A stretch of DNA of 64,000 nucleotides from Trypanosoma brucei (Eukaryota): positions 64,001 through 128,000 of the forward strand of contig AL929603.2 in NCBI GenBank assembly GCA_000002445.1, read 5' to 3'. The notes beneath the pieces are model-generated. The model searched no databases. It had not been told where the DNA came from and saw only the letters and a list, made by a program, of their open reading frames with translations. Numbering within the stretch: position 1 is the stretch's first letter; every line of letters begins with the position of its first letter. Positions 11,424 through 63,735 of this stretch are shown one piece after another. Both the position numbers and the translations under genes were made by a program.

Positions 11424-13915
11424 TCAGGCAGCGGGGCCACCAGCAATAGCGTTTGGTTCATCCTGGGTGATCTCCTTAACAATATTCCCTTCCATCTTCA
11501 CTTGAAACTGGTTGATTCTATTCCACAACTCTGTAGTATAATCGCCTCTGCCCCCAACTGGTTCGCACTTCTGCCTCTCCTCGATTGGCTTGCTGTCACT
11601 GTACTGTATGTAAATCAGCTCCCATTTCAAGTTTCTTGCGAGCTTATCCCATTCACCAAACAATTGTTTCATTGCCTTGATAAACTTATCTACCTTCTCT
11701 CGTGTCGTGTGATGCGTTGGTGCCACTGTCGGCTGGAGCAGAACAATTGTTCTTGTAATGATCGCTCTTCCTTCTCTATCAACAGCTGGCTCAGTTACAA
11801 AGAAAAAGGCGTCCACAACGGGGAAATTTCCCTGTACAGGTCGGTAAAGGCACCCAACCTCAATGTCTTGGCCTGTCGTTTCGGGTAAATATGACGAAGT
11901 GAAGTTGGAACACGTCCCACGGCATTACCACTTGCCAGAGCGGATACATTTGAATCCATTTCTTCTCCAACGCGAGGGAGATACCGCAGGTGCGTCACAA
12001 TCGTCTGCACAACATTTCCCATCGTGAAGGCATATATGCCCACATTTTCAAATTCATCAGCGGCCTGCTCTTTTTTCCCACGAAAAACCTTTCGAAGGTA
12101 ATTGTCTCGCATACATGCTGTGTCCGCCCACTCTCTCAATTTCTGCTCAATATCAATGGAAACAGCTCTGTTTCTGCATTCTTCTCCATTCTCAGTTACA
12201 ACCCGGACCAACTTAGCCAACCTGTATGTAGTCCCGTCCTCGCGCCATTCAACTCGACTATTCAGCACCTTCATGTAGTGTTCAGCATCGCCTCTACTGA
12301 TTTCTGCCAGTGCCTCATTTATTTCTCTAACATGGTCACAATAGGGTTTGTCACCTTCCAGTACGTGGCGGGGCAGTGGGCCCACCTTCTTAATCCATCC
12401 TTCTATTTTCTGCCATTCATTCTCAAGGTTTATGATGTGAGCTTCGGTGATTTTACTTTCGTCCAACTTCGACAGCCGCCTCCACGCAACCGCAGCCTTC
12501 AGTTCCACCTCTTCATAGCAATTGATGCAAAAGCGCTCGCAAGCCCGTGGCCGCTTCCAGCGTCTGTAGTTATTTGGATCTGGAGATGTCAACACAATTA
12601 CGGGCCACGTTTCCGGCAATTTTGTCGGTATGGGTTCATCTCTCTCTTTCGCAAAGTCGTATATAATGTAACCAAGACCTTCTTCATCAGCCAAGTCATT
12701 GACAGCATCCACTCCATCTTTTTCTTCTTCATAAAATACAACCTTTCTCGGATGATCATTTGTCGCCCTGAAGAAAATATATGCCCTACCCTTCACAAAA
12801 TAAGCGATAATCCGCAACAGCTCCGAATCGTAATGCAGCAACCTTTGGAGCAGAAACGAGCCAACACCAAATGATTTCCCAATACCTGGAGTGCCAACGA
12901 GGACGCAAGGTATCTTTTTTTTATTCACGCCTGGCCCTAACCACAAATCCAGCCTCTGCTTCACAAGATACCACACTCTCATTACCTCTCGACGAATGTA
13001 CACATCCCGGTCAAACACGTAGTCTCCTGGTTCCTCCGCACCCTCTTGAATTACACTTCGCGGAATGCGGAAACGGTTATACGGCCAACCCTTCTGCGAG
13101 GTGAGCACAGCAATCTCCAAATTACCGTGACGAGGCAGTGGGTCGCACAAGTCATAAGGCGTGTGACTGACATTCACCTCCTCTTCTGTCCACAACTCGG
13201 GCTCGCCGTCACAATTACCCACAACCTTCATGCCAAGAGGTAAATCATTGTGACCCGACTCCACATAACCCCACGTCGCATTGTATATGGATTCATATAC
13301 TCCTTTCAGTTCGACACCATCAGCTTTTTGGGCAGCTCTTTTCCTTGCTTCTTTGGCGGCCGCCAACGCTCCATCCAACCTTCCCCTCGCCATGGGACCA
13401 ACAAATTCTCTTATTTCCACTGTCCCCTTCTCCTCCCACTGACTGAGGTAGTAAATTTCTTTTTCGTCAAGGTACCTTGCTTTCCGCTTCATTTCAGAGA
13501 ATTGGTTATATAATTCTTTATATTCCTCAAACTCATCAAGCCGCCGTATCCTTCCTAGAATCCCGGCATCCAAAATATAATCCTCCGGGCTCTGGACAAA
13601 CACATCCATTGCCACATTCTCTGTGTCATACGTATTAGAGAATTTTTTCAGCAAAAAGTCATGCACTGTCATATCCCTCAAACCCGCATAATCATCCAGC
13701 AGCACATCCCTCACCTTACTATCCATTGTCCAGTTGGGCCCCCCTTCAGTTCTCTGCCGTATTTGTGGAGGCTGAGCAGCAGCAGCAGCAGCAGGAGGAG
13801 GAGGCGGCGGTACATTTTCATCCCGTGGCCTCCTCATGGGCCCTTCAAAATTATCTGCCACTTGTTGATTTTCATTATTTCCTTGTGGAGCTGCGGGACT
13901 ATTTGCTCTTGACAT
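11424..13915 (-). pseudogene. RHS: RHS type-2 copy a. Full length of 830 codons, but frameshifted by a 1-bp deletion in a G/C homopolymer (GGG at 11883..11885, where the paralog at 27824..27827 has GGGG).
   Basis: The 706-aa ORF (11795..13915) and the 130-aa ORF (11424..11816) together are collinear with the paralog 27365..28843 plus 34052..35081. The downstream ORF matches the paralog C-terminus (FFFVTEPAVDREGRAI...AIAGGPAA) in the -1 frame. Confidence 0.8.
12845..12856 (-). other. Unoccupied (empty) ingi hot-spot target TTCTGCTCCAAA (minus-strand sense) in RHS2a. It is identical to the TSD flanking ingi-1.
   Basis: Plus strand 12845..12856 reads tttggagcagaa, followed by acgagccaacacc. Exactly this 12-mer is duplicated at 28786..28797 and 34052..34063. 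Confidence 0.85.
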
Positions 13916-26390: not shown

Positions 26391-27364
26391 TTCCACATAT
26401 AATATTCCTCAATATCGTTCACAAAATAAAAATAATTTCATTTCCTTCTGTATTCAGTTTCTTGTGCAGCAGTGTGTACTAATCATCCATAAAGTTTTTA
26501 ATTTGCCAAATACATCATTACGAAACTATTTTCCACAAATAAACAAACAAATAAACAACCAAACATTTTTAAATGTTGTTGTGAAACGGAAATTGAATCA
26601 CGGAAAATTGTGGGGCGCACACGTAATGGGCACCATGAATGCCTCTTTGGATATTCCTCTATGGATTTTCACCAGCATCATCAACTTACTTTTTGTGTAA
26701 AAAAAAACAAAAAAGAAATAAAGGTACAAATGCATTAATAAACCCAACTCCTCAGCAGGAAATCAAGAACAGGAAGCCACGAAAAGCGTATGGCATATAT
26801 GATTTTCACCTCTCAGTTACTTGAGGTGGATCGCATGATTTACCCACCTTCTAAGAACACACCCTCCGAGAGGCCCGATTAAAAGAAAAAAAAACGCTAT
26901 GACGGTTGAAAAGACGTTTTTCATAAACCTTCACTTTATACGTGAGGATGCATGAATAAACAATGATAACGATGAGAATGCTAACGGAAACAATGACGAA
27001 CCGTGAGGATCCTAGAAAAAAAAATAAAATAAAATCATCACGTACCTTCACAGTAGGGAAACTTAATAAATAACAAAATATAAATATTCCCTACACAGAG
27101 GTATAGGGAGTGTTCGTCAACTTCGTAATGCTAATCAAAAAGTCTTCAAATGTATCGATCATTCGTGTAGTCAATCAAATAAGAAGTAACATGTACTACA
27201 CGCACAAAAGCACACTTACAAAGCCTACAAACCCACTTGCCCCCTTTTAGAGAATACCACTCTCTAGTCAGTGATAGGAGAGGTGATATTAAAAGTATTC
27301 CCTTTATAATTATTTCTGACTCCTCAATTCGTTGCAACATAACATAACATGCAAAGATGTTGCA
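26391..27364. repeat. C-type segment copy 2.
   Basis: Matches 10441..11423. Confidence 0.75.
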
Positions 27365-28785
27365 TCAGGCAGCGGGGCCACCAGCAATAGCGTTTGGTTC
27401 ATCCTGGGTGATCTCCTTAACAATATTCCCTTCCATCTTCACTTGAAACTGGTTGATTCTATTCCACAACTCTGTAGTATAATCGCCTCTGCCCCCAACT
27501 GGTTCGCACTTCTGCCTCTCCTCGATTGGCTTGCTGTCACTGTACTGTATGTAAATCAGCTCCCATTTCAAGTTTCTTGCGAGCTTATCCCATTCACCAA
27601 ACAATTGTTTCATTGCCTTGATAAACTTATCTACCTTCTCTCGTGTCGTGTGATGCGTTGGTGCCACTGTCGCCTGGAGCAGAACAATTGTTGTTGTAAT
27701 GATCGCTCTTCCTTCTCTATCAACAGCTGGCTCAGTTACAAAGAAAAAGGCGTCCACAACGGGGAAATTTCCCTGTACAGGTCGGTAAAGGCACCCAACC
27801 TTGATGTCTTGGCCTGTCGTTTCGGGGTAAATATGACGAAGTGAAGTTGGAACACGTCCCACGGCATTACCACTTGCCAGAGCGGATACATTTGAATCCA
27901 TTTCTTCTCCAACGCGAGGGAGATACCGCAGGTGCGTCACAATCGTCTGCACAACATTTCTCATCGTGAAGGCAAATATGCCCACATTTTCAAATTCATC
28001 AGCGGCCCGCTCTTCTTTCCCACGAAAAACCTTTCGAAGGTAATTGTCTCGCATACATGCTGTGTTCGCCCACACTCTCAATTTCTGCTCAATATCAATG
28101 GAAACAGCTCTGTTTCTGCATTCTTCTCCATTCTCAGTTACAACCCGGACCAACTTAGCTAACATGTAAGTAGTCCCGTCCTGGCGCCATTGAACTCGAC
28201 TATTCAGCACCTTCATGTAGTGACTATCATCGCCTCTACTGATTTCTGCCAGTGCCTCATTTATTTCTCTAACGCGGCCCTTGTAGCGTTTTTCACCTTC
28301 CAGTACTTGGCGGGCCAGTGGGCCCACCTTCTTAATCCATCCTTCTATTTTCTGCCATTCATTCTCAAGGTTTATGATGTGAGCTTCGGTGATTTTACTT
28401 TCGTCCAACTTCGACAGCCGCCTCCACGCAACCGCAGCCTTCAGTTCCACCTCTTCATAGCAATTGATGCAAAAGCGCTCGCAAGCCCGTGGCCGCTTCC
28501 AGCGTCTGTAGTTATTTGGATCTGGAGATGTCAACACAATTACGGGCCACGTTTCCGGCAATTTTGTCGGTATGGGTTCATCTCTCTCTTTCGCAAAGTC
28601 GTATATAATGTAACCAAGACCTTCTTCATCAGCCAAGTCATTGACAGCATCCACTCCATCTTTTTCTTCTTCATAAAATACAACCTTTCTCGGATGAACA
28701 TTTGTCGCCCTGAAGAAAATATATGCCCTACCCTTCACAAAATAAGCGATAATCCGCAACAGCTCCGAATCGTAATGCAGCAACC

Positions 28786-28797
28786 TTTGGAGCAGAA
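28786..28797. repeat. Target-site duplication, 3' copy, of ingi-1 (plus strand tttggagcagaa; element sense TTCTGCTCCAAA).
   Basis: Immediately follows the element poly(A), which is a plus-strand T10 at 28798..28807. It is a 12/12 match to 34052..34063. Confidence 0.85.
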
Positions 28798-29069
28798 TTT
28801 TTTTTTTGAATTTTCTTCGTGCCTTCGTGAGAGTTTCTCCCAACTGGCGCGGCCATCAGCCATCACCGTAGAGCCCTGAGATGCTATCGGTCTGGCGACT
28901 GTGGCAGAGTCTCCCTTTTTTATTCATCCTAACACACCCTCTATAATTTTTGTTGTAGCTCCGCATATGAACGGAATACAGTAGATGGGGCGAGAAGCCC
29001 CCCTCACCCCGGACTCTCCCAAAGATGTCAATTAGCAATCCTTTTGTTTTGATTTTTGTTATTCGTTTA

Positions 29070-32000
29070 TTATTCTCTCCCCCTCTTTCTGTTTCTGTTG
29101 CTTGTTGACTGCATACCTCCTCTGTCTCTGAGGGTGTCTGGACTATTCCTGCGTCCGGTGCTTTTCCTGCTAGCTCCACATTCGGCAATAAGGGGGGAAG
29201 TTGCAGAAGGGAGAGTGGGTTGTATGACTGTTACCTTAGGTGAGGACTTCACCTGCGGCCGGCTCCGTTCAACCGCAATGAGAAACTGCGCCAGCCTTTT
29301 GGAGAAACATACATCCTGCACACACTCACCTTCTACCGCAAATCTGACACGTAACTCCTTCAAACCGGGACAGCTCATCAAGTGCAGCGACGTTTCTTCG
29401 CAGTCGCCGCGTTGGCTGGTAACAGCGCGCTCTACCTTCATACCGTGCATCTTCTTTTGATGTAGGGTGAGGCCAGTTTTGCTAGCACACTGCCTTCCGC
29501 ATGTCGGGCACACCAACATGGATGTGTTTGTATGCGGGGAATCAGTGGCACACAATTTTGTGCTTTTGCTGCATTTAAGCTCGACTCCCTCACCTTTGTG
29601 GAAAGCCTTACAGTGTCGGATGAGGGAGTCCCTGCAACTGAGCACTTTTTGGCACACACCACACTGCACCTCGCCCTTCCCCGGGACGTCAACGTTTCCC
29701 TCACGGGCACGCTTACGAGGGAATTGCACCAACACCACGGTACCGTCCTCCGTCACTATGCTTTTATGTTTGAATTTCTTGTGTAGTGTCAGGGAAGAAC
29801 GTGTACCGAAGCTCGCCTCGCACAGGTCACATTGAAACGGCAGCTTCCGTGTATCCTGAGAGGCTGGCGCTGCTGGGGCTTTACCATCTCCTTGCACTGA
29901 GTCCTCGTTCTCTCGCCCCCTTTTCACGCGGCAACTGCCGCTGCCTATGCCATGTATTGTTCTAAGGTGGTGTAGTAGTCTGCCTGGCACTGCGAATTTG
30001 GAGGCACAGATGGTACAATGAAGCACCTGCGGTCTCATCGGGACTCGTGTGCTCGATGGTAGGGGAACGATCGCCACCACTGGAGGGGGCTCCGGGGGGA
30101 TATCCACTGCAGGTGTTGCATCGCCGTATTTGATCCTCCGGAGGGCATCAGCTCGCACAAAGCCATGTTTGTTTACCATATGCGTTACAGCACTCGAGCG
30201 GCATTGGTATGTGGCATCACATTCCGTACATTTGGTCGGTTCGGAGGTTCTTTGAAGAGTGCGTGTCGCAACAGTTGGGGCTGTTTGTATTGTTGGCCCT
30301 ATCTCTGCATGTTGCGGGTTGCACCATCGGCACTGTGGAGGCACACTCGGGTTAATCTTTCGCAACATCCATCCATAGTGTCTTGAAGACCCAACCCGAA
30401 AGCGTGCCAGTGCCGTTTCTTCTTCCCTCGTCAGTTCTTCCTTATGTTTTGTTGGAAAGTGGTTGCCCGTGATACCAAACCTATGAGTGTTCTCATGGAC
30501 TTCTTCCGACCTAAGCACTCGCTTCGCATAAGCAATGATGTCGGGGATCCATGTGTCTCGCAACTGTGGTAAATCTGCGGCCTTTTTGGCCATGTCATCG
30601 CAAACCTCATTCCGTTTCACGCCACAATGGCCAAACACAAATTGCAGTCGGATACGTATCTTCCTTCTCTGAACTTGAAGCAGAAGCCTCCATAGTCGTC
30701 TTAGAATTGGGTCCGTTACGGCTAGGGGGCCTGTCTGCAGTGCTGTTAACATTGACAGCGAGTCAGAGAAGATGGACAACCTGCTCGGTGTGGTTCTGTA
30801 TGCCGGAAGCCATTTCAGCAGCCGTTGCAGTCCTATCTCTAATGCTACGCATTCCGCTCTGTAACTGCATGAAAGTTCCCCTGCTCCTGTCTTAGGTGCA
30901 CAAATCAGCGTGTTGTTTCTATAGAGCAGGGCAGCTGCTCCGGACTTCTCACCGAGGGACACGGATCCATCAGTCCACAATTCGTAGTGCTCTCGCCGCG
31001 GTGGCTCCTTCCCCCTCCGTGCAAAATGTCGTTCAATCCACTTTTCGGAAGCCTCCCTTTTGACATCGTCAGGGTCATCAGCGCACACAGGCTTTATCTG
31101 CGTGTGAAATATCGGTCGGCAGCTGTGGCGGAGCGTCGATGTCTCTAGTGGGTGCTCGCGTGGCTCAATGCGGAGGTGGGGGTAGGACCGCATGATACGG
31201 GAATGTAGGGCTCTGACTGGGTGTTTGCTGTGGTATACTTCTTCAGCACTGCGCCGCAAACATCCGCCTCGTGACTCACACATCAGCATGAATTTCATGC
31301 TGCGCACAAGAGTGGCCGTCTTGAGTGGCAGGAGGTTTGCTTCCAGCAGAGAGTCCTCTTTGCGCGTCCCATGCGGTATGCCGGCTATGATGCGACTGGC
31401 TTTGTGTTGTGCTGATGCAAGGAGGTCGCGACTTCGTTCCGAAGCGTCCCAGTACCATACCTCAATGCCATACATGGTGTGTGCCTGTACGAGTGCTAGA
31501 TAAAAAGTTCTCAGTACTTGTCGTCTTGGCCCCCATGTAGAAGCTGAGATGGCTGCTATCTGCAGTAGTCGGAAGTCCATCTTGCGTCTCGTTTCGGCCG
31601 CATGTGTTGCCATCCCCTGCAGACACTGGAATGTTACTCCTAGAAGCTTCGGTGTCCTGTCAGCTCCTATTCTTTCACCGTCCAGTTGTAATGTAAGGGG
31701 GTGGCGCTCTATACACCCGAAGAGTGTGCACTTTGTTTTCGCTACGTTGACAGACATGAAGTACTCTTTTGACCACTGTAACACCACGTTTAGACCGCAT
31801 TGTAGTGTGTGGTTGATGACATCCCTCTCTGTGTGCCTCGCAAGTAGCGTTAGGTCGTCTGCAAAGAATCCGTGCTGCAGTAACGGCACCTCTGCAAGGC
31901 GTTGGCTCAACGAGTTCATGACAATAATGAACATGATTGGGCCAAGGACAGTTCCTTGTGGCACTCCTCGCTCAAATGTTCTGCTTCTGGAAAGCTTCTC

Positions 32001-34051
32001 CTTGAATCTCACTCTGCCAGTTCGGTTACTCAGAAATGATACGCACCACTTCACAATGTGGGGTGATACCTTCATTCTGTGCATTTCCCTCGCAATTTTG
32101 TCGTGGTCTACTGTATCAAATGCCTTCTCGTAGTCAACGAATACAGCACCCGTACGATATTGGTGCGTGGGACGGCAGAGGGCAGCGCGGACGTGCAGGA
32201 GTTGTTCGAGCGTTGAGCATCCGGGGCGAAAGCCTGATTGCTGCGGCGTCAGCTGGGACTCAACAGTGTCTCTAAGTCTCGCGGCAATTATGCGCTCCAT
32301 GACTTTGCAGAGACAGCTCGTGAGCGTCACAGGCCTGTAAGAATCGAGGTCCTCCGCCTTTTTTCCGGCCTTCAGGATGGGGATGATAACACCAGTCTTC
32401 CATGCAGGCGGCACGACTCCCGTTCGTAGGCTCTCATTGAATAGCCTCAGAACAACATTCAGCGCTGTTCTGCCGAGATGTTGCAGTGCCTCGTTGTATA
32501 AGCAATCAGGTCCGGCTGCGGATCCACTCGGTAGCAGTTTGATCGATCTCCGTAGTTCAGCCATCGTGATGGGACTGAACTCACTCGCTATCGTCTTTAT
32601 TGGTGCCGGTGGGTGTGAGTCGGGGTGCCTTCTTGCGCGGGACGAGTACAGTTTACTGAACCTCTCAGCTTGACGGTAGTCCGTGATGGCCGCGTTATCT
32701 ACAAGTACAGCCGGTGTGGTTAGTGGTCGTGGCGCATATACCTTCTTGACAATGTGCCAACTGCAGCGGTCTGACACCGCAAGTCTGGAGCATAGCGTGC
32801 TCCATCTCTTCTTTGTGGTACGGTCCAGGATCTGCTTACGCGTGGCTACCAACTTTTCCCTTCGGTGGGAGGGTCCGCATCCAGCGATCTCTTCATCGAG
32901 TTTCGCGAGCTCAGGTGTCCAATGTGGTGGCGTTGCTCTGCAGCCACGGGGGACGGAGACCTTCGTCGCAATGCGGATGGCGGAGCTCAATTTCTGTTCC
33001 AGGGTGTTGACGTTCTTCTCTCTACCAATTTTCCTGCAGAGCTCGTCAACCTTGAGACGGAAATTCCTCCAGTTAGCTTTTAGCCATGCGTACATGGGCT
33101 TTTGAAGCCGCGGGCAACTCAGTGCATCTGTGTCGTCTCCAACGATAACGTCGAAAAATATGTGATGGTGATCGCTATCGGGAGAATACAGCGATGTCCA
33201 CGTGTACACTGTGCAATTCCTTGACAGTGTCACATCAGGGGTGGACTCCCCGTGGTGGCGCGCGTACCTGGTGCACTCACCAGTGTTGCAGACCAGAAAC
33301 TGGTTGTCAATGCACCACTGTGTGAGGGTTTCACCCTTGGTATTTGGTGGGCTCGCGCGATCCCATGCCAACGCGTGTGCGTTAGCGTCTGCACCGATGA
33401 GCTGGGCACCGTCAGTCGTCAGAAGCGTATCTAGGTCAGTTGCCGTGAAGGTGTGTTTTGGTGGGATGTATGCCGACGTGACAGTCAGCGCCGTTCCACG
33501 TGCAAGGTGAATTGTTGCATGCACTTGTTCAATGCGACCAATAACGGCCATACCGGTCTCGACTGGTAGGTCCTCCCTCACTAGTATTGATACACCACCT
33601 CCTTTGCAGTTACGAGCTATTCCGTGATGTTGGTAGCCAGCAACGCTAAAGCAAGCCGCCTCTCCAGGCGTCATCCTTGTCTCGCTCAACAGACAAAAGG
33701 CGATCCGCTCATCAACAAGGGTTTTGTGGAGTGCTAATCTCTTTCCTTGAGATAGCCCGGCGCAGTTCCACTGCATCCCGCGCAACGACGGGCCGGGATT
33801 CTCTTCCACATCACCGGACAGCAGCATCTTAGTGCGGATGATACTGCTGATGGCACGCTGGCACGTGCCCAGGGACCGACAAATGAAAGACGGTGTCCCA
33901 GCAAGACGCTGCTGATCCCTGTGCTGTATGATGCCGTAGCCGGAGCACAGCAGTGTTCCCCATGAAAGGAACGCTGCTGGCTCTTGGCTTCCCCCGATGA
34001 TACGGGGTACTGGACCCTGGCACCACGTTGAGGTGGCCGGCATCGCCAGGG
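29070..34051 (-). CDS. ingi polyprotein ORF of about 1660 codons with no stop or frameshift. Domains in protein order: leader with 2A-like motif; APE-type endonuclease (about 33132..33776); reverse transcriptase (about 31752..32534, FADD motif); RNase H (about 30582..30989, HYELWTDGS...); five C2H2 zinc fingers (about 29442..30227). The stop codon is at 29070..29072.
   Basis: This is the ingi-derived portion of the 2003-aa ORF 29070..35081. Domain motifs were read from the translation: MQWNCAGLSQ...FFDVIVGDD for the endonuclease; PQGTVLGPIMF...GFFADDLTLL for the RT; CTECDATYQCRSSAVTHMVNKHG and CPTCGRQCASKTGLTLHQKKMHG for the fingers. It is in frame with the upstream RHS codons. The element's own first ATG is at nt 9..11. 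Confidence 0.8.
33789..33812 (-). other. 2A-like co-translational 'self-cleaving' motif DVEENPGP, in the context IIRTKMLLSGDVEENPGP|SLRGMQWNCAG. It lies about 80 codons into ingi-1, upstream of the endonuclease domain.
   Basis: Codons 424 to 431 of the 2003-aa ORF; plus strand cgggccgggattctcttccacatc. It matches the D(V/I)ExNPG|P consensus of viral 2A and of 2A-like sequences reported in trypanosomatid L1Tc/ingi elements. Confidence 0.85.
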
Positions 34052-34063
34052 TTTGGAGCAGAA
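34052..34063. repeat. Target-site duplication, 5' copy, of ingi-1 (tttggagcagaa).
   Basis: These are the last 12 nt of the RHS 5' part (codons F-L-L-Q plus A) abutting the ingi 5' end at 34051. Confidence 0.85.
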
Positions 34064-35081
34064 ACGAGCCAACACCAAATGATTTCCCAATACCTGGAGT
34101 GCCAACGAGGACGCAAGGTATCTTTTTTTTATTCACGCCTGGCCCTAACCACAAATCCAGCCTCTGCTTCACAAGATACCACACTCTCATTACCTCTCGA
34201 CGAATGTACACATCCCGGTCAAACACGTAGTCTCCTGGTTCCTCCGCACCCTCTTGAATTACACTTCGCGGAATACGGAAACGGTTAAACGGCCAACCCT
34301 TCTGCGAGGTGAGCACAGCAATCTCTAAATTACCGTGACGAGGCAGTGGGTCGCACAAGTCATAAGGCGTGTGACTGACATTCACCTCCTCTTCTGTCCA
34401 CAACTCGGGCTCGCCGTCACTATTACCCACAACCTTCATGCCAAGAGGTAAATCATTGTGGCCCGATTCCACATAACCCCACGTCGCATTGTATACGGAT
34501 TCATATACTCCTTTCAGTTCGACACCATCAGCTGTTTGGTGAGCTCGTTTCCTTGCTTCTTTGGCGGCCGCCAACGCTCCATCCAACATTCCCCTCGCCA
34601 CGGGACCAACAAATTCCCTTATTTCCCCTCTTCCCTTCTCCTCCCACTGCCGGAGGTAGTAAATTTCCTTCTCAGACAGATAAATAGCTGCCCTCACTGT
34701 TTTAAATTCATCAAGCCGCCGTATCCTTCCTAGAATCCCGGCATCCAAAATATAATACTCCGGGCTCTGAACAAACACATCCATTGCCACATTCTCTGTG
34801 TCATACGTATTAGAGAATTTTTTCAGCAGAAAGTCATGCAACTTCATATCCCTCAAACCCTCACAGCGTTGCAGCAATACATCTTCAATAGAACTATTCA
34901 TCGTCCAGTTGGGCCCCTCTTCAGTTCTCTGCCGTATTTGTGGAGGCTGAGCAGCAGCAGCAGCAGGAGGTGGCGGTACATTTTCATCCCGTGGCCTCCT
35001 CATGGGCCCTTCAATATTACCTGCCACTTGTTGGTTTTCATTATTTCCTTGTGGAGCTGCGGGACTATTTGCTCTTGACAT

Positions 35082-37119
35082 AACTCTCCTAATATTATTA
35101 ACTTAACTTCCTTTCCTTTTCTTTTTTCTCTGAAATTATAAATAACTGAAGTAAAGTAACATATGAGGAAAATAATAGCGGGTGAACAGTGTAACATAAT
35201 ATCAAAAGTGATCAAGCATGCTAATGTTTATTCACTATCATTTGTATAATATGATATCAAAATGTATTTGGTATTGAGAAGAGCAATTTCAAAATATAGC
35301 AGCTGTAAATAAATATTTCCCTTGCTTCATTATCATGTGCTAAATATAATGAACTTCATACACCATTTCTTTTTTAAACCATATATAATATGGAAACGAA
35401 AAATATTACTGCCTCATACACCTGCATCAACACTTCGTATATATAATCAACATTTACAAAAAGTCAAATTCTATTGATTAAAATCAAGTAAAACAATAAA
35501 CAATAAAAATATATGGATATTAATGAAACGAAGAAAAAGATTATCGGAACAACACATAGATACATACACACATGAATACGCACTACACAATTGCTTCTTT
35601 GTATATCCTCCCCATTTTTACAATTCATAATATTCACTTGCATTGAATAAACTCATTGAAAATATAAATCACCTATCCCCTCCCCCGTGTATTCACTTAC
35701 TTCCAAAGGAGAATATTAAATAATGTCTGTAGGACAGGTAAAAAAAAACTGATAGTCTTTTTGCATCAGATAACCAGTGAGTATTTCTGTTTACTTTCAT
35801 AATAAATAAAAACATCATTTTGCCTTCAGTTAAAATAAAATTTAATTACTTGCCTCCTCACTGTTCACAACTGTCAACAACTAATTCAGCCCCACACATT
35901 CATATGAATCTGATGTGCCATCATTGTTTGATGAATTCACACACCTTTTATGATAGCGATGATACAACACATTGTAAAAAATTGGAATAAAATTAATACA
36001 ATTAATTGAGGAACCCATGAAAGACTATCATAACATTTTTAAAATTTACCTCCTTTCATTTACACAAATTAAATATGTAATGAGACAATTCCCTTTCAGT
36101 ACCTGTCCACACTTATTGTATCATCATTGTAAGTTTCCTATTGCTCACATACACGAAGCTATTGGAGTAACAAAAAATAAAACAACACATCTAAACAACT
36201 TGAAACTATATATAATAAATAAATAAAGGTAATAGAGAGAATGAGCGTGAACTGACAGATAATAAAATGAAACACGTCTCGCACTTTCCTTATAAATATT
36301 CAATAGTTGGTATGTTACAAATAAAAACAATTACACATTATAGAAAGGAAGGGATATAATTACATTATACACCTGTATGTGGATATGTAACAGTGAGTCA
36401 TAGTAGAAATAAATTGCCTAAACACAATAGTTATGGAAGATAAAATAATTCAAAATATCAATAATATTATTCTATCAACATTCCCTTCCTTCTCCATTAA
36501 GTTTTCAATGGTTTCAAATAATAATTCACATAATCCCATACATGTGTTACGATGGGTATTGCATGCAGTACCATCTAAAGGAAGTGCAACTCATATAACA
36601 TTTTCAAAAAAAGGTATTGAATGGTTGTTTGCTACCATCAATTACATTTCCAATGCCTAATTACACTTTTATATGCATGAAGGAAGTTACTGATGATAAC
36701 TTTGACATGCTCGAGAATTCATAACACAAAGCAGCAGCTGCATGCAATAAAAAATAAAAATATAAATAACATCCGAATTCATTTACCGACAGATGAGTGC
36801 AATTCATTCACCCAAACTTCATAGCTGTAAACATAAACTCGCTGCTTCCAATAGGAAATAATCCCGCATAAATATTGAGTATCTGAAAATGATAGCAACG
36901 GGTTTCCATTTTTGAAATATATGCATAAAATACATGAGGTATATGAAGCCATATTGGTAAAGTGTCACTACGCATGTTGCAATTTACTATCAGAAGTGTC
37001 TGCCTTATTTTATTTCTTGTGTTACTGTAACTCATGAGTATCATTCATTATTCTTTACAATACAACTGTAAGTCATTTTGCATTTTTACATATTTTCTTA
37101 TTCTCTCATACTGGAAGTA
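35082..37119. repeat. B-type segment copy 4 (5' flank of RHS2b).
   Basis: Same start sequence and body as the other B copies. It is the most diverged of the four. Confidence 0.75.
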
Positions 37120-49022: not shown

Positions 49023-49055
49023 CTTCCTTATAACACTTCCCCCCCTCGTTTGATT
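49023..49055 (+). promoter_or_regulatory. Polypyrimidine tract upstream of the LRR gene ATG; a putative trans-splice signal.
   Basis: cttccttataacacttccccccctcgtttgattc followed by AG dinucleotides at 49062 to 49090. The ATG is at 49137. This is inference only. Confidence 0.3.
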
Positions 49056-49136
49056 CATCGCTTAGCTCTATTATTAAAAAAGAAAAAGCATTTCCTCAAC
49101 ACTCAGCACCTCAAGGAATCGGAAACGGGAACTACA

Positions 49137-57989: not shown

Positions 57990-58517
57990 TTAATCAAGAA
58001 CAATACTCAACATTTTGCTTCAGGACACCAGACACTTATTCTGGGAGAAAAGCGTCTGAGGGAACGTGAAGCAAGAGGTGATAATGTTTTCAGTTTATAT
58101 GGCTCCGTATGCAATTCAAAGTGGAGTGACATTATAATGGACAATGGAACTCAAATGCTGGGCATGAAGTTTGTTGATGGAACGCGTGCTGATGATATAA
58201 TGTGGAAAGATGAAGAAGTTAATGTCGTCCCCAAAATTGAGGAAACTTTTGAACATAAGCCGGAACGCACGGGAAGGAGGTGAAGCAACGGTTCCAACAT
58301 CTTAAATGGAGTGGTCGTACTCACAGTTTAATATTTAAATTCACAATGACATTCTCATTCAGAGAAAGGACTGGAGACTGAAATGTTGTGGAAAGAAAGC
58401 TCTGCGCTTGGCCAGCTGAGGAAACTCGAATACTAAGACACGCACCAAATCCTTACATTGTGATTGGAAACTCCAGAATCAGTAAGTCACTGGCCATCGG
58501 CTCACTTCTCCTTCACA
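57990..58517 (+). pseudogene. RHS: Highly degenerate RHS pseudogene, 5' fragment up to the hot spot (…YIVIGNSRISKSLAIGSLLLH).
   Basis: Weak but collinear similarity to the RHS region ...LKGVYDSIYNATWGYVESG...LGMKVFNG...WTKEEVDVSHTP...LIGTPGIGKSFSVGSLLLY. The window has YGSVCNSKWSDIIMDNGTQMLGMKFVDG...MWKDEEVNVVPKIEE...IVIGNSRISKSLAIGSLLLH. The reading frame is broken by stops. Confidence 0.55.
58506..58517. repeat. Target-site duplication, 5' copy, of ingi-2 (ttctccttcaca).
   Basis: These 12 nt precede the ingi 5' end (ccctggcgatgcc at 58518). They are a 12/12 match to 63724..63735. Confidence 0.85.
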
Positions 58518-61500
58518 CCCTGGCGATGCCGGCCACCTCAACGTGGTGCCAGGGTCCAGTACCCCGTATCATCGGGGGAAGCCAAGAGCCAGCAGAGTTC
58601 CTTTCATGGGGAACACTGCTGTGCTCCGGCTACGGCATCATACAGCACAGGGATCAGCAGCGTCTTGCTGGGACACCGTTTTTCATTTGTCGGTCCCTGG
58701 GCACGTGCCAGCGTGCCATCAGCAGTATCATCCGCACTAAGATGCTGCTGTCCGGTGATGTGGAAGAGAATCCCGGCCCGTCGTTGCGCGGGATGCAGTG
58801 GAACTGCGCCGGGCTATCTCAAGGAAAGAGATTAGCACTCCACAAAACCCTTGTTGATGAGCGGATCGCCTTTTGTCTGTTGAGCGAGACAAGGATGACG
58901 CCTGGAGAGGCGGCTTGCTTTAGCGTTGCTGGCTACCAACATCACGGAATAGCTCGTAACTGCAAAGGAGGTGGTGTATCAATACTAGTGAGGGAGGACC
59001 TACCAGTCGAGACCGGTATGGCCGTTGTTGGTCGCATTGAAAAAGTGCATGCAACAATTCACCTTGCACGTGGAACGGCGCTGACTGTCACGTCGGCATA
59101 CATCCCACCAGAACACACCTTCACGGCAACTGACCTAGATACGCTTCTGACGACTGACGGTGCCCAGCTCATCGGTGCAGACGCTAACGCACACGCGTTG
59201 GCATGGGATCGCGCGAGCCCGCCAAATACCAAGGGTGAAACCCTCACACAGTGGTGCATTGACAACCAGTTTCTGGTATGCAACACTGGTGAGTGCACCA
59301 GGTACGCGCGCCACTACGGGGAGTCCACCCCTGATGTGACACTGTCAAGGAATTGCACAGTGTACACGTGGACATCGCTGTATTCTCCCGATAGCGATCA
59401 CCATCACATATTTTTCGACGTTATCGTTGGAGACGACACAGGTGCACTGAGTTGCCCGCGGCTTCAAAAGCCCATGTACGCATGGCTAAAAGCTAACTGG
59501 AGGAATTTCCGTCTCAAGGTTGACGAGCTCTGCAGGAAAATTGGTAGAGAGAAGAATGTCAACACCCTGGAACAGAAATTGAGCTCCGCCATCCGCATTG
59601 GACACCTGAGCTCGCGAAACTCGATGAAGAGAGCGCTGGATGCGGACCCTCCCACCGAAGGGAAAAGTTGGTAGCCACGCGTAAGCAGATCCTGGACCGT
59701 ACCCCAAAGAAGAGATGGAGCACGCTATGCTCCAGACTTGCGGTGTCAGACCGCTGCAGTTGGCACATTGTCAAGAAGGTATATGCGCCACGACCACTAA
59801 CCACACCGGCTGTACTTGTTGATAACGCGGCCATCACGGACTACTGTCAAGCTGAGAGGTTCAGTAAACTGTACTCGTCCCGCGCAAGAAGGCACCCCGA
59901 CTCACACCCACCGGCACCAATAAAGACGATAGCGAGTGAGTTCAGTCCCATCACGATGGCTGAACTACGGAGATCGATCAAACTGCTACCGAGTGGATCC
60001 GCAGCCGGACCTGATTGCTTATACAACGAGGCACTGCAACATCTCGGTAGAACAGCGCTGAATGTTGTTCTGAGGCTATTCAATGAGAGCCTACGAACGG
60101 GAGTCGTGCCGCCTGCATGGAAGACTGGTGTTATCATCCCCATCCTGAAGGCCGGAAAAAAGGCGGAGGACCTCGATTCTTACAGGCCTGTGACGCTCAC
60201 GAGCTGTCTCTGCAAAGTCATGGAGCGCATAATTGCCGCGAGACTTAGAGACACTGTTGAGTCCCAGCTGACGCCGCAGCAATCAGGCTTTCGCCCCGGA
60301 TGCTCAACGCTCGAACAACTCCTGCACGTCCGCGCTGCCCTCTGCCGTCCCACGCACCAATCTCGTACGGGTGCTGTATTCGTTGACTACGAGAAGGCAT
60401 TTGATACAGTAGACCACGACAAAATTGCGAGGGAAATGCACAGAATGAAGGTATCATCCCACATTGTGAAGTGGTGCGTATCATTTCTGAGTAACCGAAC
60501 TGGCAGAGTGAGATTCAAGGAGAAACTCTCCAGAAGCAGAACATTTGAGCGAGGAGTGCCACAAGGAACTGTCCTTGGCCCAATCATGTTCATTATTGTC
60601 ATGAACTCGTTGAGCCAACGCCTTGCAGAGGTGCCGTTACTGCAGCACGGATTCTTTGCAGACGACCTAACGCTACTTGCGAGGCACACAGAGAGGGATG
60701 CCATCAACCACACACTACAGTGCGGTCTAAACGTGGTGTTACAGTGGTCAAAAGAGTACTTCATGTCTGTCAACGTAGCGAAAACAAAGTGCACACTCTT
60801 CGGGTGTATAGAGCGCCACCCCCTTACGTTGCAACTGGACGGCGAAAGAATAGGAGCTGACAGGACACCGAAGCTTCTAGGAGTAACATTCCAGTGTCTG
60901 CAAGGGATGGCAACACATGCGGCCGAAACGAGACGCAAGATGGACTTCCGACTACTGCAGATAGCAGCCATCTCAGCTTCTACATGGGGGCCAAGACGAC
61001 AAGTACTGAGAACTTTTTATCTAGCACTCGTACAGGCACACACCATGTATGGCATTGAGGTATGGTACTGGGACGCTTCGGAACGAAGTCGCGACCTCCT
61101 TGCATCAGCACAACACAAAGCCAGTCGCATCATAGCCGGCATACCGCATGGGACGCGCAAAGAGGACTCTCTGCTGGAAGCAAACCTCCTGCCACTCAAG
61201 ACGGCCACTCTTGTGCGCAGCATGAAATTCATGCTGATGTGTGAGTCACGAGGCGGATGTTTGCGGCGCAGTGCTGAAGAAGTATACCACAGCAAACACC
61301 CAGTCAGAGTCTTACATTCCCGCATCATGCGGTCCTACCCCCACCTCCGCATTGAGCCACGCGAGCACCCACTAGAGACATCGACGCTCCGCCACAGCTG
61401 CCGACCGATATTTCACACGCAGATAAAGCCTGTGTGCGCTGATGACCCTGACGATGTCAAAAGGGAGGCTTCCGAAAAGTGGATTGAACGACATTTTGCA

Positions 61501-63723
61501 CGGAGGGGGAAGGAGCCACCGCGGCGAGAGCACTACGAATTGTGGACTGATGGATCCGTGTCCCTCGGTGAGAAGACCGGGGCAGCTGCCCTGCTCTATA
61601 GAAACAACACGCTGATTTGTGCACCAAAGACCGGAGCAGGGGAACTCTCATGCAGTTACAGAGCGGAATGCGTAGCATTAGAGATAGGACTGTAACGGCT
61701 GCTGAAATGGCTTCCGGCTTACAGAAGCACACCGAGCAGGTTGTCCATCTTCTCTGACTCGCTGTCAATGTTAACAGCACTGCAGGCAGGTCCACTAGCC
61801 GTAACGGACCCAATTCTGAGACGACTATGGAGGCTTCTGCTTCAAGTTCAGAGAAGGAAGGTGCGTATCCTAATTCAATTTATGTTCGGTCATTGTGATA
61901 TGAAACGGAATGAGGTTTGTGATGAAATGGCTAAAAAGGCCGCAGATTTACCACAGTTGCGAGACACATGGATCCCCGACATCATTGCTTATGCGAAGCG
62001 AGTGCTTAGGTCGGAAGAAGTCCATGAGAACACTCATAGGTTTGGTATCACTGGCAACCACTTTTCAACAAAATATAAAGAAGAACTGACGAGGGAAGAA
62101 GAAACGGCACTGGCACGCTTTCGGGTTGGGTCTTCAAGACACTATGGATGGATGTTGCGAAAGATCAACCCGAGTGTGCCTCCACAGTGCCGATGGTGCA
62201 ACCCGCAACATGCAGCGATAGGGCCAACAATACAAAAGGCCCCAACTGTTGCGACACGCACTCTTCAGAGAACCTCCGAACCGACCAAATGTACGGAATG
62301 TGATGCCACATACCAATGCCGCTCGAGTGCTGTAACGCATATGGTAAACAAACATGGCTTTGTGCGAGCTGATGCCCTCCGGAGGATCAAATACGGCGAT
62401 GCAACACCCGCAGTGGATATCCCCCCGGAGCCCCCTCCAGTGGTGGCGATCGTTCCCCTACCATCGAGCACACGAGTCCCGATGAGACCGCAGGTGCTTC
62501 ATTGTACCATCTGTGCCTCCAAATTCGCAGTGCCAGGCCGACTATTACACCACCTTAGAACAATACATGGCATAGGCAGCGGTAGTTTCCGCGTGAAAAG
62601 GGGGCGAGAGAACGAAGACTCATTGCAAGGAGATGGTAGCGCTCCAGCAGCGCCAGCCTCTCAGGATACACGGAAGCTGCCGTTTCAATGTGACCTGTGC
62701 GAGGCGAGCTTCGGTACACGTTCTTCCCTGACACTACACAAAAAATTCAAACATAAAAGCATAGTGACGGAGGACGGTACCGTGGTGTTAGTGCAATTCC
62801 CTCGTAAGCGTGCCCGTGAGGGAAACGTTGACGTCCCGGGGAAGGGCGAGGTGCAGTGTGGTGTGTGTGCCAAAAAGTGCTCAGTTGCAGGGACTCCCTC
62901 ATCCGACACTGTAAGGCTTTCCACAAAGGTGAGGAAGTCGAGCTTAAATGCAGCAAAAGCACAAAATTGTGTGCCACTGATTCCCCCCGTACAAACACAT
63001 CCATGTTGGTGTGCCCGACATGCGGAAGGCAGTGTGCTAGCAAAACTGGCCTCACCCTACATCAAAAGAAGATGCACGGTATGAAGGTAGAGCGCGCTGT
63101 AACCAGCCAACGCGGCGACTGCGAAGAAACGTCGCTGCACTTGATGAGCTGTCCCGGTTTGAAGAAGTTACGTGTCAGGTTTGCGGTAGAAGGTGAGTGT
63201 GTGCGGGATGTATGCTTCTCCAAAAGGCTGGCGCAATTTCTCATTGCGGTTGAACGGAGCCGGCCGCAGGTGAAGTCCTCACCTAAGGTAACAGTCATAC
63301 AACCCACTCTTCCTTCTGCAACTTCCCCCCTTATTGCCGAGTGTGGAGCTAGCAGGAAAAGCACCGGACGCAGGAATAGTCCAGACACCCTCAGAGACAG
63401 AGGAGGTATGCAGTCAACAAGCAACAGAAACAGAAAGAGGGGGAGAGAATAATAAACGAATAACAAAAATCAAAACAAAAGGATTGCCAATTGACATCTT
63501 TTGGAGAGTCCAGGGTGGGAGGCTTCTCGCCCCATCTGCTGTATTCCGTTCATATGCGGAAATACAACAAAAATTATAGAGAGTGTGTTAGGATGAATGA
63601 AAAAGGGAGACTCTGCCACAGTCGCCAGACCGATAGCATTTCAGGGCTCTACGGTGATGGCTGATGGCCGCGCCAGTGGGGGGAAACTCCCACGAAGGCA
63701 CGAAGAAAATTCAAAAAAAAAAA
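58518..63723 (+). mobile_element. ingi: ingi non-LTR retrotransposon copy 2, full length at 5206 bp but degenerate. The ORF is split into 58518..59674, 59668..61695, 61741..63084 and 62856..63452. Poly(A) at 63713..63723.
   Basis: Same 5' terminus and domain order as ingi-1 (about 98% aa identity where alignable). Lesions relative to copy 1: (i) an internal deletion of about 50 bp near 59600, causing a frameshift; (ii) a CAA to TAA nonsense codon at 61693..61695 (LEIGL* where copy 1 has LEIGLQ); (iii) a +2 (GT) expansion at about 62861..62869, causing a frameshift. Confidence 0.9.
58757..58780 (+). other. 2A-like motif DVEENPGP in ingi-2, identical to the one in ingi-1.
   Basis: gatgtggaagagaatcccggcccg; codons 124 to 131 of ORF 58388..59674. 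Confidence 0.85.
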
Positions 63724-63735
63724 TTCTCCTTCACA
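63724..63735. repeat. Target-site duplication, 3' copy, of ingi-2 (ttctccttcaca).
   Basis: Immediately follows the A11 run at 63713..63723. Confidence 0.85.

What the first reader, a model, noticed from the sequence alone, without database searches (positions are those of the whole stretch)
28798..34051. An apparently intact, full-length ingi retrotransposon with one uninterrupted ORF of about 1660 codons and a pristine 12-bp TSD. Candidate autonomous, recently active element.
What the sequence shows:
- The element is 5254 bp. It has the canonical 5' end CCCTGGCGATGCC..., a 10-nt poly(A), and a perfect 12/12 TSD (TTCTGCTCCAAA).
- One stop-free frame runs through the 2A, endonuclease, RT (FADD), RNase H and five C2H2 fingers.
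- The second copy in the same window (58518..63723) carries a deletion, a nonsense codon and a microsatellite frameshift.

Established knowledge: ingi/L1Tc-type elements encode a single polyprotein with this domain order. Genomic ingi copies in T. brucei are generally reported as carrying frameshifts or stops.

Inference: this copy inserted recently and could be a source element. It could also be trans-complementing RIME or degenerate copies.
Basis: partly seen in the sequence, partly recalled or inferred. Interest (0 to 1): 0.75.

Follow-up and report, generated by a model that had tools for sequence, protein, structure and literature searches.

The report
Intact ingi retrotransposon in RHS gene
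This is a complete, coding-competent copy of the well-known Trypanosoma brucei "ingi" jumping gene, sitting at the classic insertion hot spot of an RHS gene; it is a clean textbook example, not a new kind of element.

Summary
Window 28798..34051 (minus strand) is a 5254-bp ingi element. It has the canonical 5' end, an A10 tail and a perfect 12-bp target-site duplication. Its single ORF has 1657 codons, and every catalytic motif I checked is intact: 2A, APE, RT, RNase H and five C2H2 fingers.

- The element lies at the published hot spot of an RHS gene, five codons after the P-loop.
- It is in frame with RHS, so the stop-free frame is really 2003 codons (35081..29070).
- The window holds its own empty site. 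A ~16-kb tandem duplicate, 97.5% identical, carries the target 12-mer once at 12844..12855. The insertion therefore postdates that duplication and is probably much younger.

The interpretation "young, potentially autonomous copy" is supported. Actual activity is untested.

The finding is not novel. Published work already describes potentially functional ingi with a 4971-bp, 1657-aa ORF. It also reports several such copies per T. brucei genome, the 12-bp duplication, the active 2A, the 5' promoter/ribozyme signature and the RHS hot spot. Interest is low. One modestly interesting idea remains: the in-frame RHS fusion plus 2A may let the element borrow RHS translation signals.

The parts
28798..34051 (-). 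Full-length ingi (Tbingi) non-LTR retrotransposon, 5254 bp, 53% G+C in a 41% G+C window
34052..34063 (-). 5' copy of the 12-bp target-site duplication TTCTGCTCCAAA (part of the RHS coding sequence)
28786..28797 (-). 3' copy of the 12-bp target-site duplication
33975..34051 (-). 5' 77-nt signature (Pr77 promoter / HDV-like ribozyme region). Its first 110 nt fold into three stem-loops.
   Evidence: Fold z = -4.4. The signature is 92% and 84% conserved in the T. congolense and T. vivax elements, and its helices are kept. Function is taken from PMC3185411, PMC3383444 and PMC4035085.
29070..34043 (-). ingi ORF, 1657 codons plus TAA
33789..33812 (-). 2A-like ribosome-skipping motif DVEENPGP (ingi aa 78-85)
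   Evidence: Activity of the ingi 2A is reported in PMC3708506.
33168..33776 (-). APE-type endonuclease domain (ingi aa 90-292)
   Evidence: Pfam Exo_endo_phos and Exo_endo_phos_2. The N, E, Y, D, N, D and SDH residues are invariant with human L1 EN and six homologs.
31629..32357 (-). Reverse transcriptase domain (ingi aa 563-805) with FVDYEKAFD and FADD
   Evidence: Pfam RVT_1 at 5e-45. Matches to solved R2 and LINE-1 ORF2p structures. Motifs located.
30576..30989 (-). RNase H domain (ingi aa 1019-1156) with D1025, E1064, D1094, H1139, N1145, D1149
29445..30230 (-). Five C2H2 zinc fingers (ingi aa 1272-1533)
28798..29069 (-). 3' UTR (272 nt) ending in A10 (28798..28807)
34052..35081 (-). 5' half of the interrupted RHS gene: 343 codons from the ATG at 35081, containing DUF7578, RHS_N and the GTPGIGKS P-loop. 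It is in frame with the ingi ORF; with the element's first 8 nt, 346 codons precede the ingi ATG.
27365..28797 (-). 3' half of the interrupted RHS gene (rest of the RHSP P-loop domain plus the C-terminal domain). Removing the element and one TSD copy restores an 816-codon ORF.
12844..12855 (-). Empty site: a single copy of the target 12-mer in the paralogous RHS gene (11795..13915) of the upstream 16-kb duplicate
58518..63723 (+). Second, defective ingi copy, with its own 12-bp TSD TTCTCCTTCACA (58506..58517 and 63724..63735). It sits at the equivalent position of a degenerate RHS-like remnant.

Best explanation
The feature is a structurally intact, coding-competent Tbingi. Tbingi is the autonomous non-LTR (LINE-like) retrotransposon of the Trypanosoma brucei group.

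Shown:
- It inserted by target-primed reverse transcription into the canonical hot spot of an RHS gene.
- The staggered cuts were 12 bp apart, five codons downstream of the P-loop.
- It lies in the sense orientation and in frame with RHS.
- The insertion happened after a local ~16-kb tandem duplication of a two-gene RHS unit. The sister unit keeps the empty site.
- It is probably much younger than that duplication.

Inferred mechanism:
- The element is co-transcribed with the minus-strand RHS polycistron and/or from its own Pr77 internal promoter.
- The 5' 77-nt HDV-like ribozyme can trim the co-transcript to the exact element 5' end.
- The single polyprotein is translated either from the element's own AUG or as an RHS(1-343)::ingi fusion from a trans-spliced RHS mRNA.
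- The 2A motif at aa 78-85 causes ribosome skipping. This frees the APE-RT-RNase H-zinc-finger protein from whatever lies upstream.
- That protein could then mobilise this element and non-autonomous RIMEs.

It is thus one of the handful of potentially autonomous ingi copies already known to exist per genome. Whether it actually transposes is not shown.
For: Anatomy: 5254 bp, canonical 5' end, A10 tail, perfect 12-bp TSD, and a 1657-codon ORF.

Domains and catalytic residues are intact.

No private lesions in copy 1:
- At 93 columns invariant in six homologs, copy 1 has no private change.
- Where the two copies differ, outgroup residues agree with copy 1 in 31 comparisons and with copy 2 in 13.

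dN/dS between the two copies is 0.24 (p = 2e-10). Most of their divergence therefore arose under selection for coding capacity, as expected for descendants of active source lineages.

Host context:
- Pfam finds RHS_N, DUF7578 and RHSP on both sides of the element. The reconstructed empty gene is an open 816-codon RHS.
- The RHS half is 92% identical to a T. b. brucei TREU927 RHS protein.

Empty/filled pair:
- Window 1-12855 matches 15935-28797 at 97.5% identity.
- The match resumes at 12844 = 34052, with a 12-bp overlap that is the TSD.

Age: neutral decay since the duplication would leave the ORF intact with probability of about 0.003.

The 5' signature and its helices are conserved in Tcoingi and Tvingi, and the 5' end forms a three-stem-loop fold.

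Literature:
- A functional ingi has a 4971-bp, 1657-aa ORF (PMC3447711).
- Several potentially active copies exist, with 12-bp TSDs, 52% G+C in ingi and 41% in the genome (PMC2323293).
- The hot spot lies five codons after the ATP/GTP motif (PMC7563717).
- 78 of 118 RHS genes are pseudogenes, partly through retrotransposon insertion (PMC6393297).
- The ingi 2A is active (PMC3708506).
- Pr77 acts as a promoter and ribozyme that releases co-transcripts (PMC3383444, PMC3185411, PMC4035085).
Against: - No expression, translation or mobility data could be examined.
- No other T. brucei ingi copies or other strains could be fetched. The protein database holds no T. brucei ingi, and exact-protein look-ups found nothing. 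Closeness to a family consensus, uniqueness of the copy and presence/absence polymorphism are therefore untested.
- ingi/RHS sequences account for about 52% of siRNAs in T. brucei (PMC3447711), so an intact copy may be silenced.
- Ribozyme cleavage at +1 would sever an RHS::ingi fusion mRNA. The fusion-translation route and the ribozyme route therefore compete.
- Missense changes that inactivate the protein without touching known motifs cannot be excluded.
Confidence: 0.85

Rival explanations
1. The element is intact only because it is young. It is a silenced, dead-end daughter copy, not a source element. It sits in an RNAi-targeted RHS array and contributes siRNA precursors, not new insertions.
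For: ingi/RHS is the largest siRNA class in T. brucei (PMC3447711). The window holds a second ingi in inverted orientation 24.5 kb away, a layout that favours dsRNA. Most LINE daughter copies in any genome never become masters (general knowledge).
Against: Nothing in the sequence disables it. It is sense-oriented inside a polycistron, and its ORF is fused in frame to an expressed gene family, which is a favourable expression context.
Confidence: 0.4
2. The ingi reached this RHS gene by homologous recombination or gene conversion from another RHS::ingi pseudogene, or the whole filled locus was copied. It would then not be a de novo TPRT event at this site, and the perfect TSD would say nothing about when retrotransposition occurred.
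For: RHS genes form large, recombining arrays. Recombination upstream of the retroelement has been proposed as a source of RHS pseudogenes (PMC7563717). Identity between the two 16-kb units drops from 97% to 92.6% further upstream of the insertion, which could mark a conversion boundary.
Against: Both flanks are collinear with the sister unit right up to the junction. The TSD is exactly the sister unit's own 12-mer. There is no chimeric RHS structure around the element. Copy 2 has a different TSD that matches its own diverged flank, which shows independent insertions at the hot spot.
Confidence: 0.12
3. The uninterrupted ORF is an assembly or polishing artefact. Reads from many ingi copies were collapsed or used to polish this copy, erasing its real lesions.
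For: ingi is a repeat with hundreds of copies (about 470 target sites in the 427 assembly, PMC12975129), and it sits in a tandemly duplicated array. Both make the region hard to assemble.
Against: The same assembly keeps private lesions in copy 2: a 49-bp deletion, a stop codon and a 2-bp insertion. It also keeps 2.5% divergence between the 16-kb duplicates, so repeats are resolved here. The ORF contains no homopolymer run of 7 or more that could hide an indel error. The window contains no N.
Confidence: 0.07

Closest known systems
Tbingi (ingi) autonomous non-LTR retrotransposon of Trypanosoma brucei, 'potentially functional' class
   Same: The length is 5.25 kb and the single ORF is 4971 bp, 1657 aa (PMC3447711). 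The protein has 2A, APE, RT, RNase H and zinc fingers. The element has the 77-79-nt 5' signature, a poly(A) tail, a 12-bp TSD and about 52-53% G+C (PMC2323293, PMC3820030, PMC12278014).
   Different: No difference was detected. I could not compare it base by base with a reference or consensus ingi, because none was retrievable.
RHS (retrotransposon hot spot) pseudogenes carrying ingi or RIME
   Same: The insertion is five codons downstream of the P-loop, splitting the RHS gene into two halves (PMC7563717, PMC6393297). The orientation matches the gene. A second, independent insertion at the equivalent position is present in the window.
   Different: Here both RHS halves are still open: the gene reconstructs to an 816-codon ORF. 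A 97.5%-identical sister unit also shows the unoccupied site, so this is an unusually fresh and well-documented example.
L1Tc of Trypanosoma cruzi, with Tvingi and Tcoingi
   Same: They share the domain order, the N-terminal 2A and the Pr77 / HDV-like ribozyme signature. The signature is 84-92% identical over the first 45-50 nt in the T. vivax and T. congolense elements. Their TSDs are 11-12 bp.
   Different: Protein identity to Tvingi and Tcoingi is only 40-43%. L1Tc is about 4.9 kb. These are different subfamilies in different host species.
R2 elements (co-transcription with a host gene, released by a 5' HDV-like ribozyme)
   Same: Both show site-preferential insertion into a multicopy host gene, sense orientation, likely co-transcription, and 5' processing by an HDV-like ribozyme (PMC3383444).
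   Different: R2 uses a restriction-like endonuclease, has strict 28S rDNA specificity and lacks a promoter. ingi uses an APE endonuclease, has only relative site preference, and carries an internal promoter and a 2A.

Membership tests
Tbingi / ingi-clade autonomous non-LTR retrotransposon | Element length about 5.25 kb with a 3' poly(A) | tested here: met
   5254 bp, A10 tail
Tbingi / ingi-clade autonomous non-LTR retrotransposon | Conserved 77-79-nt 5' signature (Pr77) | tested here: met
   The first 45-50 nt are 92% (T. congolense L001) and 84% (T. vivax L002) identical although the proteins are only 40-43% identical. 95.6% of helix cells are paired, against 41-52% in slid controls.
Tbingi / ingi-clade autonomous non-LTR retrotransposon | Single long ORF of 1657 aa (4971 bp) | tested here: met
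   ORF 34043..29070 has 1657 codons. This matches PMC3447711.
Tbingi / ingi-clade autonomous non-LTR retrotransposon | Domain order APE - RT - RNase H - C2H2 with catalytic residues | tested here: met
   Pfam hits, PDB R2 and L1 ORF2p matches, RNase HI alignment, motifs, and invariant APE residues against human L1 EN
Tbingi / ingi-clade autonomous non-LTR retrotransposon | N-terminal 2A-like recoding motif -D(V/I)ExNPGP- | tested here: met
   DVEENPGP at aa 78-85. The motif is present, but recoding activity cannot be tested here. Activity is reported for ingi in PMC3708506.
Tbingi / ingi-clade autonomous non-LTR retrotransposon | 12-bp target-site duplication | tested here: met
   12/12 identical, with a single-copy empty site in the paralog. 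Copy 2 also has a 12-bp TSD.
Tbingi / ingi-clade autonomous non-LTR retrotransposon | The two ends correspond to the two halves of RIME | not testable with these tools
   There is no RIME in the window, and no RIME reference sequence could be retrieved.
Tbingi / ingi-clade autonomous non-LTR retrotransposon | Conserved motif upstream of the 5' TSD (putative endonuclease recognition site) | not tested
The only two sites here are homologous RHS sequences, so their similarity is uninformative.
Tbingi / ingi-clade autonomous non-LTR retrotransposon | Closest relatives are ingi-clade elements of other trypanosomes | tested here: met
   The top hits are T. vivax and T. congolense RT proteins at E about 1e-290.
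RHS hot-spot insertion (RHS pseudogene) | The host gene is an RHS family member | tested here: met
   DUF7578, RHS_N and RHSP on the 5' half and RHSP on the 3' half. 92% identity to a TREU927 RHS.
RHS hot-spot insertion (RHS pseudogene) | Insertion a few codons downstream of the ATP/GTP-binding motif, same orientation as the gene | tested here: met
   GTPGIGKS-FGVGS-[TSD FLLQ]-ingi, as described in PMC7563717.
Retrotransposition-competent (active) element | Uninterrupted ORF with no lesion at conserved positions | tested here: met
Retrotransposition-competent (active) element | Evidence of transcription, translation or new insertions (insertional polymorphism, daughter copies) | not testable with these tools
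   No T. brucei genomes, reads or other ingi copies are reachable.
HDV-like self-cleaving ribozyme (L1TcRz type) | Nested double pseudoknot with P1, P1.1, P2, P3, P4 and cleavage at +1 | tested here: inconclusive
   The P1-like, internal and P4-like helices are present and conserved, with one compensatory pair. The pseudoknots were not evaluated. No Rfam family matches. Activity of the ingi sequence is only cited as unpublished in PMC3185411 and PMC4035085.

The most novel reading that the evidence does not exclude
The in-frame arrangement may be functional and not incidental. Insertion at the RHS hot spot places the ingi ORF in the RHS reading frame, behind an RHS trans-splice acceptor and AUG. 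The 2A peptide then sheds the RHS(1-343)+ingi(1-85) leader. RHS-embedded copies like this one would thus be the ones that are efficiently translated, since Pr77 transcripts are uncapped and poorly translated. They would then be the true source elements. The hot spot would be a translational hitch-hiking site and not merely an endonuclease preference. Both copies in the window are in frame with their upstream RHS sequence.
Probability: 0.25. Interest if true: 0.55.

Novelty: already known. Interest (0 to 1): 0.2.

Why it matters
Intact ingi copies are the presumed engines of ingi/RIME mobility, and of RHS and subtelomere plasticity, in African trypanosomes. This locus is a clean, internally controlled example, with the filled and empty sites in one window. 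It could serve as a reference active-candidate sequence for retrotransposition assays. It could also be used to test whether RHS::ingi fusion mRNAs are translated. It does not change current understanding. Elements of exactly this structure, their copy class, their hot spot and their 2A/Pr77 features are all published.

Tried and rejected
- Other T. brucei ingi proteins for a consensus: the 5.8-billion-protein database returned only T. vivax and T. congolense relatives and more distant ones.
- Exact-protein look-ups to locate this locus in other assemblies, as an in-silico filled-versus-empty test. I tried the 2003-aa fusion, the 1657-aa ORF, two neighbouring RHS proteins and the closest TREU927 RHS. 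None is on record.
- Rfam, whole window at gathering threshold and the 5' end at E up to 10: there was no HDV-like or other family hit, only chance-level matches. The trypanosomatid Pr77 ribozyme evidently has no Rfam model.
- PDB sequence search with the APE domain alone found nothing.
- Folding the isolated 77 nt gave no significant MFE (z = -0.75). Only the 110-nt fold is significant.
- The key primary papers could not be read: Bringaud 2002 (Eukaryot Cell), 2004 (MBE), 2009 (Eukaryot Cell) and Heras 2006. The figure of about 15 coding-competent ingi per haploid genome (7% of ingi) is therefore only my recollection of the 2004 abstract, not a checked citation.
- Rejected: the antisense ORFs of 100-230 aa inside the element as genes. 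They have no support and are expected in 53% G+C sequence.
- Rejected: tRNA genes or tandem repeats as insertion determinants, since the window contains none.

Full report
**1. Observation**

The element lies on the minus strand. Read 5'->3' on that strand, it starts at 34051 with CCCTGGCGATGCCGGCC and ends at 28798 with A10, a total of 5254 bp.

It is flanked by TTCTGCTCCAAA at 34052..34063 and 28786..28797, matching 12/12. The first ATG is at element position 9 (window 34043). It opens a 1657-codon frame that ends with TAA at 29072..29070 and is followed by a 272-nt 3' UTR.

The element is 53.2% G+C and the window 41.2%. These match the published values for ingi (52.3%) and the T. brucei genome (41%) (PMC2323293).

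Pfam finds Exo_endo_phos and Exo_endo_phos_2, RVT_1 (5e-45), RNase_H and a C2H2 finger. Solved R2 and human LINE-1 ORF2p structures match the RT region.

Motif scanning gives the following:
- 2A: DVEENPGP at aa 78-85.
- APE: QWN, LLSET, GADAN, TPD, SDH.
- RT: FVDYEKAFD at 635 and FADD at 727.
- RNase H: TDGS, AECVAL, SDS, GHCGVKRNEVCD.
- Five C2H2 fingers.
- No homopolymer of 7 or more inside the ORF.

The endonuclease residues N, E, Y, D, N, D and S-D-H are invariant. E. coli RNase HI aligns with the H..N..D segment.

The second copy (58518..63723, plus strand) differs by 99 substitutions. It also has a 49-bp deletion, a Q1073* codon, a GT insertion and a 2-bp 3'-UTR deletion.

**2.

*The frame extends into RHS.* The stop-free frame does not start at the element. 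It runs on upstream to an ATG at 35081, giving a 2003-codon ORF.
- The extra 346 residues carry DUF7578, RHS_N and the first 22 residues of the RHSP P-loop domain.
- The sequence downstream of the element carries the rest of RHSP.
- Deleting the element plus one TSD copy restores an uninterrupted 816-codon RHS gene.
- The C-terminal half of that gene is 92% identical to a T. b. brucei TREU927 RHS protein, 86% to T. brucei H25N7.01 and 95% to a T. b. equiperdum RHS.

So the window is an RHS array of a T. brucei-group genome.

*The insertion is at the published hot spot.* The junction reads GTPGIGKS-FGVGS-[FLLQ]-ingi. This is five codons after the ATP/GTP motif, exactly where the ingi/RIME hot spot is described (PMC7563717). 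In TREU927, 78 of 118 RHS genes are pseudogenes, partly for this reason (PMC6393297).

Copy 2 sits at the equivalent position of a degenerate RHS-like remnant (...GNSRISKSLAIGSLLLH|ingi). It has its own 12-bp TSD, TTCTCCTTCACA, and is also in frame. The window thus shows two independent hot-spot insertions.

**3. An internal empty site**

Self-comparison shows a tandem segmental duplication of about 16 kb.
- Window 1-12855 aligns with 15935-28797 at 97.5% identity.
- The alignment resumes at 12844-13459 = 34052-34667 (96.9%), then 13529-16768 = 34704-37958 (92.6%).
- The 12-bp overlap (12844..12855) is the target 12-mer. It is present once in the sister unit, inside RHS gene 11795..13915.
- The 12-mer occurs nowhere else in the window.

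This is a filled/empty pair. It demonstrates a genuine TPRT-type insertion with a 12-bp stagger, and it dates the insertion to after the duplication.

I took per-lineage substitution and indel rates from the duplicate pair, and the element's own probability that a substitution creates a stop (3.2%). An ingi as old as the duplication would then keep its ORF with probability of about 0.003. A 5% chance of intactness is reached at about half that age. This assumes neutral decay and no gene conversion.

**4. Quality of the coding sequence**

- Between the two copies dN/dS is 0.24 (48 synonymous and 37 non-synonymous changes; p = 2e-10 against neutrality). Most of their divergence therefore arose in lineages under selection for a working protein, which is the LINE 'master lineage' pattern.
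- At sites where the copies differ, residues of the T. vivax, T. congolense and more distant homologs agree with copy 1 31 times and with copy 2 13 times.
- At 93 columns invariant in the six homologs, copy 1 has ten differences. All ten are shared with copy 2 (one falls within copy 2's 49-bp deletion and could not be scored), so they are lineage-specific. They are conservative and none is at a catalytic residue.

**5. The 5' end**

- The first 110 nt fold into three stem-loops (-56.2 kcal/mol, z = -4.4), as described for L1Tc (PMC3383444).
- The first 45-50 nt are 92% and 84% identical in the T. congolense and T. vivax elements that I fetched (L001, L002). This holds even though the proteins are only 40-43% identical.
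- The three nested helices are 95.6% paired, against 41-52% in slid controls, with one compensatory C-G to U-A change. With four sequences this is only suggestive.
- Rfam has no matching family.
- The literature assigns this region two roles: an internal Pol II promoter (Pr77), and an HDV-like ribozyme that releases the element RNA from polycistronic co-transcripts (PMC3185411, PMC3383444, PMC4035085). Activity of the ingi version is cited there only as unpublished.

**6. Mechanism**

*Shown:* identity, intactness, TPRT insertion at the RHS hot spot, sense orientation, the in-frame fusion, and insertion after the duplication.

*Inferred:*
- Co-transcription with the minus-strand RHS array, and/or Pr77-driven transcription.
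- Ribozyme trimming at +1.
- Translation from the element AUG, or as an RHS::ingi fusion from a trans-spliced RHS mRNA. A pyrimidine tract and an AG lie 65 nt upstream of the RHS ATG.
- 2A ribosome skipping, which frees the APE-RT-RNase H-zinc-finger protein. The ingi 2A is active in vitro (PMC3708506).
- Possible trans-mobilisation of RIME (PMC3820030).

*Counterweights:* ingi/RHS is the dominant siRNA source in T. brucei (PMC3447711). Ribozyme cleavage would also cut a fusion mRNA.

**7. Comparison with what is known, and novelty**

Every feature matches the published description of a 'potentially functional' Tbingi:
- 5.25 kb with a single 4971-bp ORF of 1657 aa (PMC3447711).
- 'Several potentially active ingi' per genome (PMC2323293).
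- At least one putatively functional ingi-clade family in every trypanosome examined (PMC3916237).
- A recent INGI activity peak in T. brucei (PMC12278014).

From memory only, Bringaud et al. 2004 estimated about 15 coding-competent ingi per haploid genome (about 7% of copies). I could not open that paper.

It does not make an intact copy surprising. I therefore rate the finding as already known.

The one idea not found in the papers I could read is that in-frame insertion at the RHS hot spot, together with 2A, is a translational hitch-hiking strategy. I give it a probability of about 0.25.

**8. Limits**

- No other T. brucei ingi copy, strain or read set was reachable.
- Distance to a consensus, uniqueness of this copy, insertional polymorphism and expression therefore remain untested.
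- An assembly artefact is unlikely. Copy 2 keeps its private lesions, the 16-kb duplicates keep 2.5% divergence, and there are no N or long homopolymers.

Noticed in passing
window 1-16768 versus 15935-37958 (and 1-836 versus 37124-37958): A tandem segmental duplication of about 16 kb contains two RHS genes per unit. Identity is 97.5% over 12.9 kb and falls to 92.6% beyond the ingi insertion point, and a third unit begins at about 37.1 kb. The drop in identity could mark a gene-conversion boundary.
   Followed up: partly
window 11795-13915 (-) versus reconstructed 27365-28785 + 34052-35081 (-): The uninterrupted 'empty-site' RHS paralog encodes only 706 aa. The ingi-interrupted gene reconstructs to 816 aa, like T. 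brucei H25N7.01 (818 aa). The two differ by a frameshift near the C-terminus, so the retrotransposon hit what looks like the full-length copy, and the spared paralog may itself be truncated.
   Followed up: partly
window 5904-8405 (-) and 21854-24355 (-): There are two 833-aa RHS genes, 99.8% identical at the protein level, of a different subfamily (about 50% identical to the other pair). Both have intact hot spots (GTPGIGKSFSVGSLLLYK).
   Followed up: no
window 48972-53318 (+): A 1448-aa leucine-rich-repeat protein ORF lies on the opposite strand to the RHS array. Genes left of about 38 kb are on the minus strand and genes right of about 44 kb are on the plus strand, which suggests a divergent strand-switch region in between. 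Its transcription start features were not examined.
   Followed up: no
window 28798-34051 (-) and 58518-63723 (+): The two ingi copies form a 5.2-kb inverted repeat, 98% identical and 24.5 kb apart. Each is sense to its own flanking genes. This is a possible substrate for inversion or for dsRNA if transcription reads through.
   Followed up: no
element nt 3001-3500 (window about 30551-31050), RNase H C-terminal part: Substitutions between the two ingi copies cluster here: 26 of 99 fall in 500 nt, including seven amino-acid changes at aa 1129-1150. Outgroups mostly agree with copy 1. This could be local decay of copy 2 or a mosaic of ingi subfamilies.
   Followed up: partly
window 58388-58517 (+): Only about 43 codons of recognisable RHS-like sequence precede copy 2 (...GNSRISKSLAIGSLLLH), and no RHS homology was detected further upstream by tblastn. 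This host 'gene' is a very degenerate or truncated RHS remnant that still kept the hot-spot target.
   Followed up: partly
L001:2867-2946 (T. congolense CAEQ01002527.1) and L002:210-289 (T. vivax CAEX01006295.1): In both outgroup elements the 5' signature is followed by about 60-75 nt before the annotated ATG. In Tbingi the ATG lies inside the signature, at nt 9. The Tbingi N-terminal 77 aa are therefore encoded by the promoter/ribozyme region itself.
   Followed up: no
databases: The 5.8-billion-protein collection contains T. brucei RHS proteins but no T. brucei ingi polyprotein. This is presumably because ingi copies are annotated as pseudogenes or repeats without translations. Rfam 15 has no model for the trypanosomatid Pr77/L1TcRz ribozyme.
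   Followed up: yes
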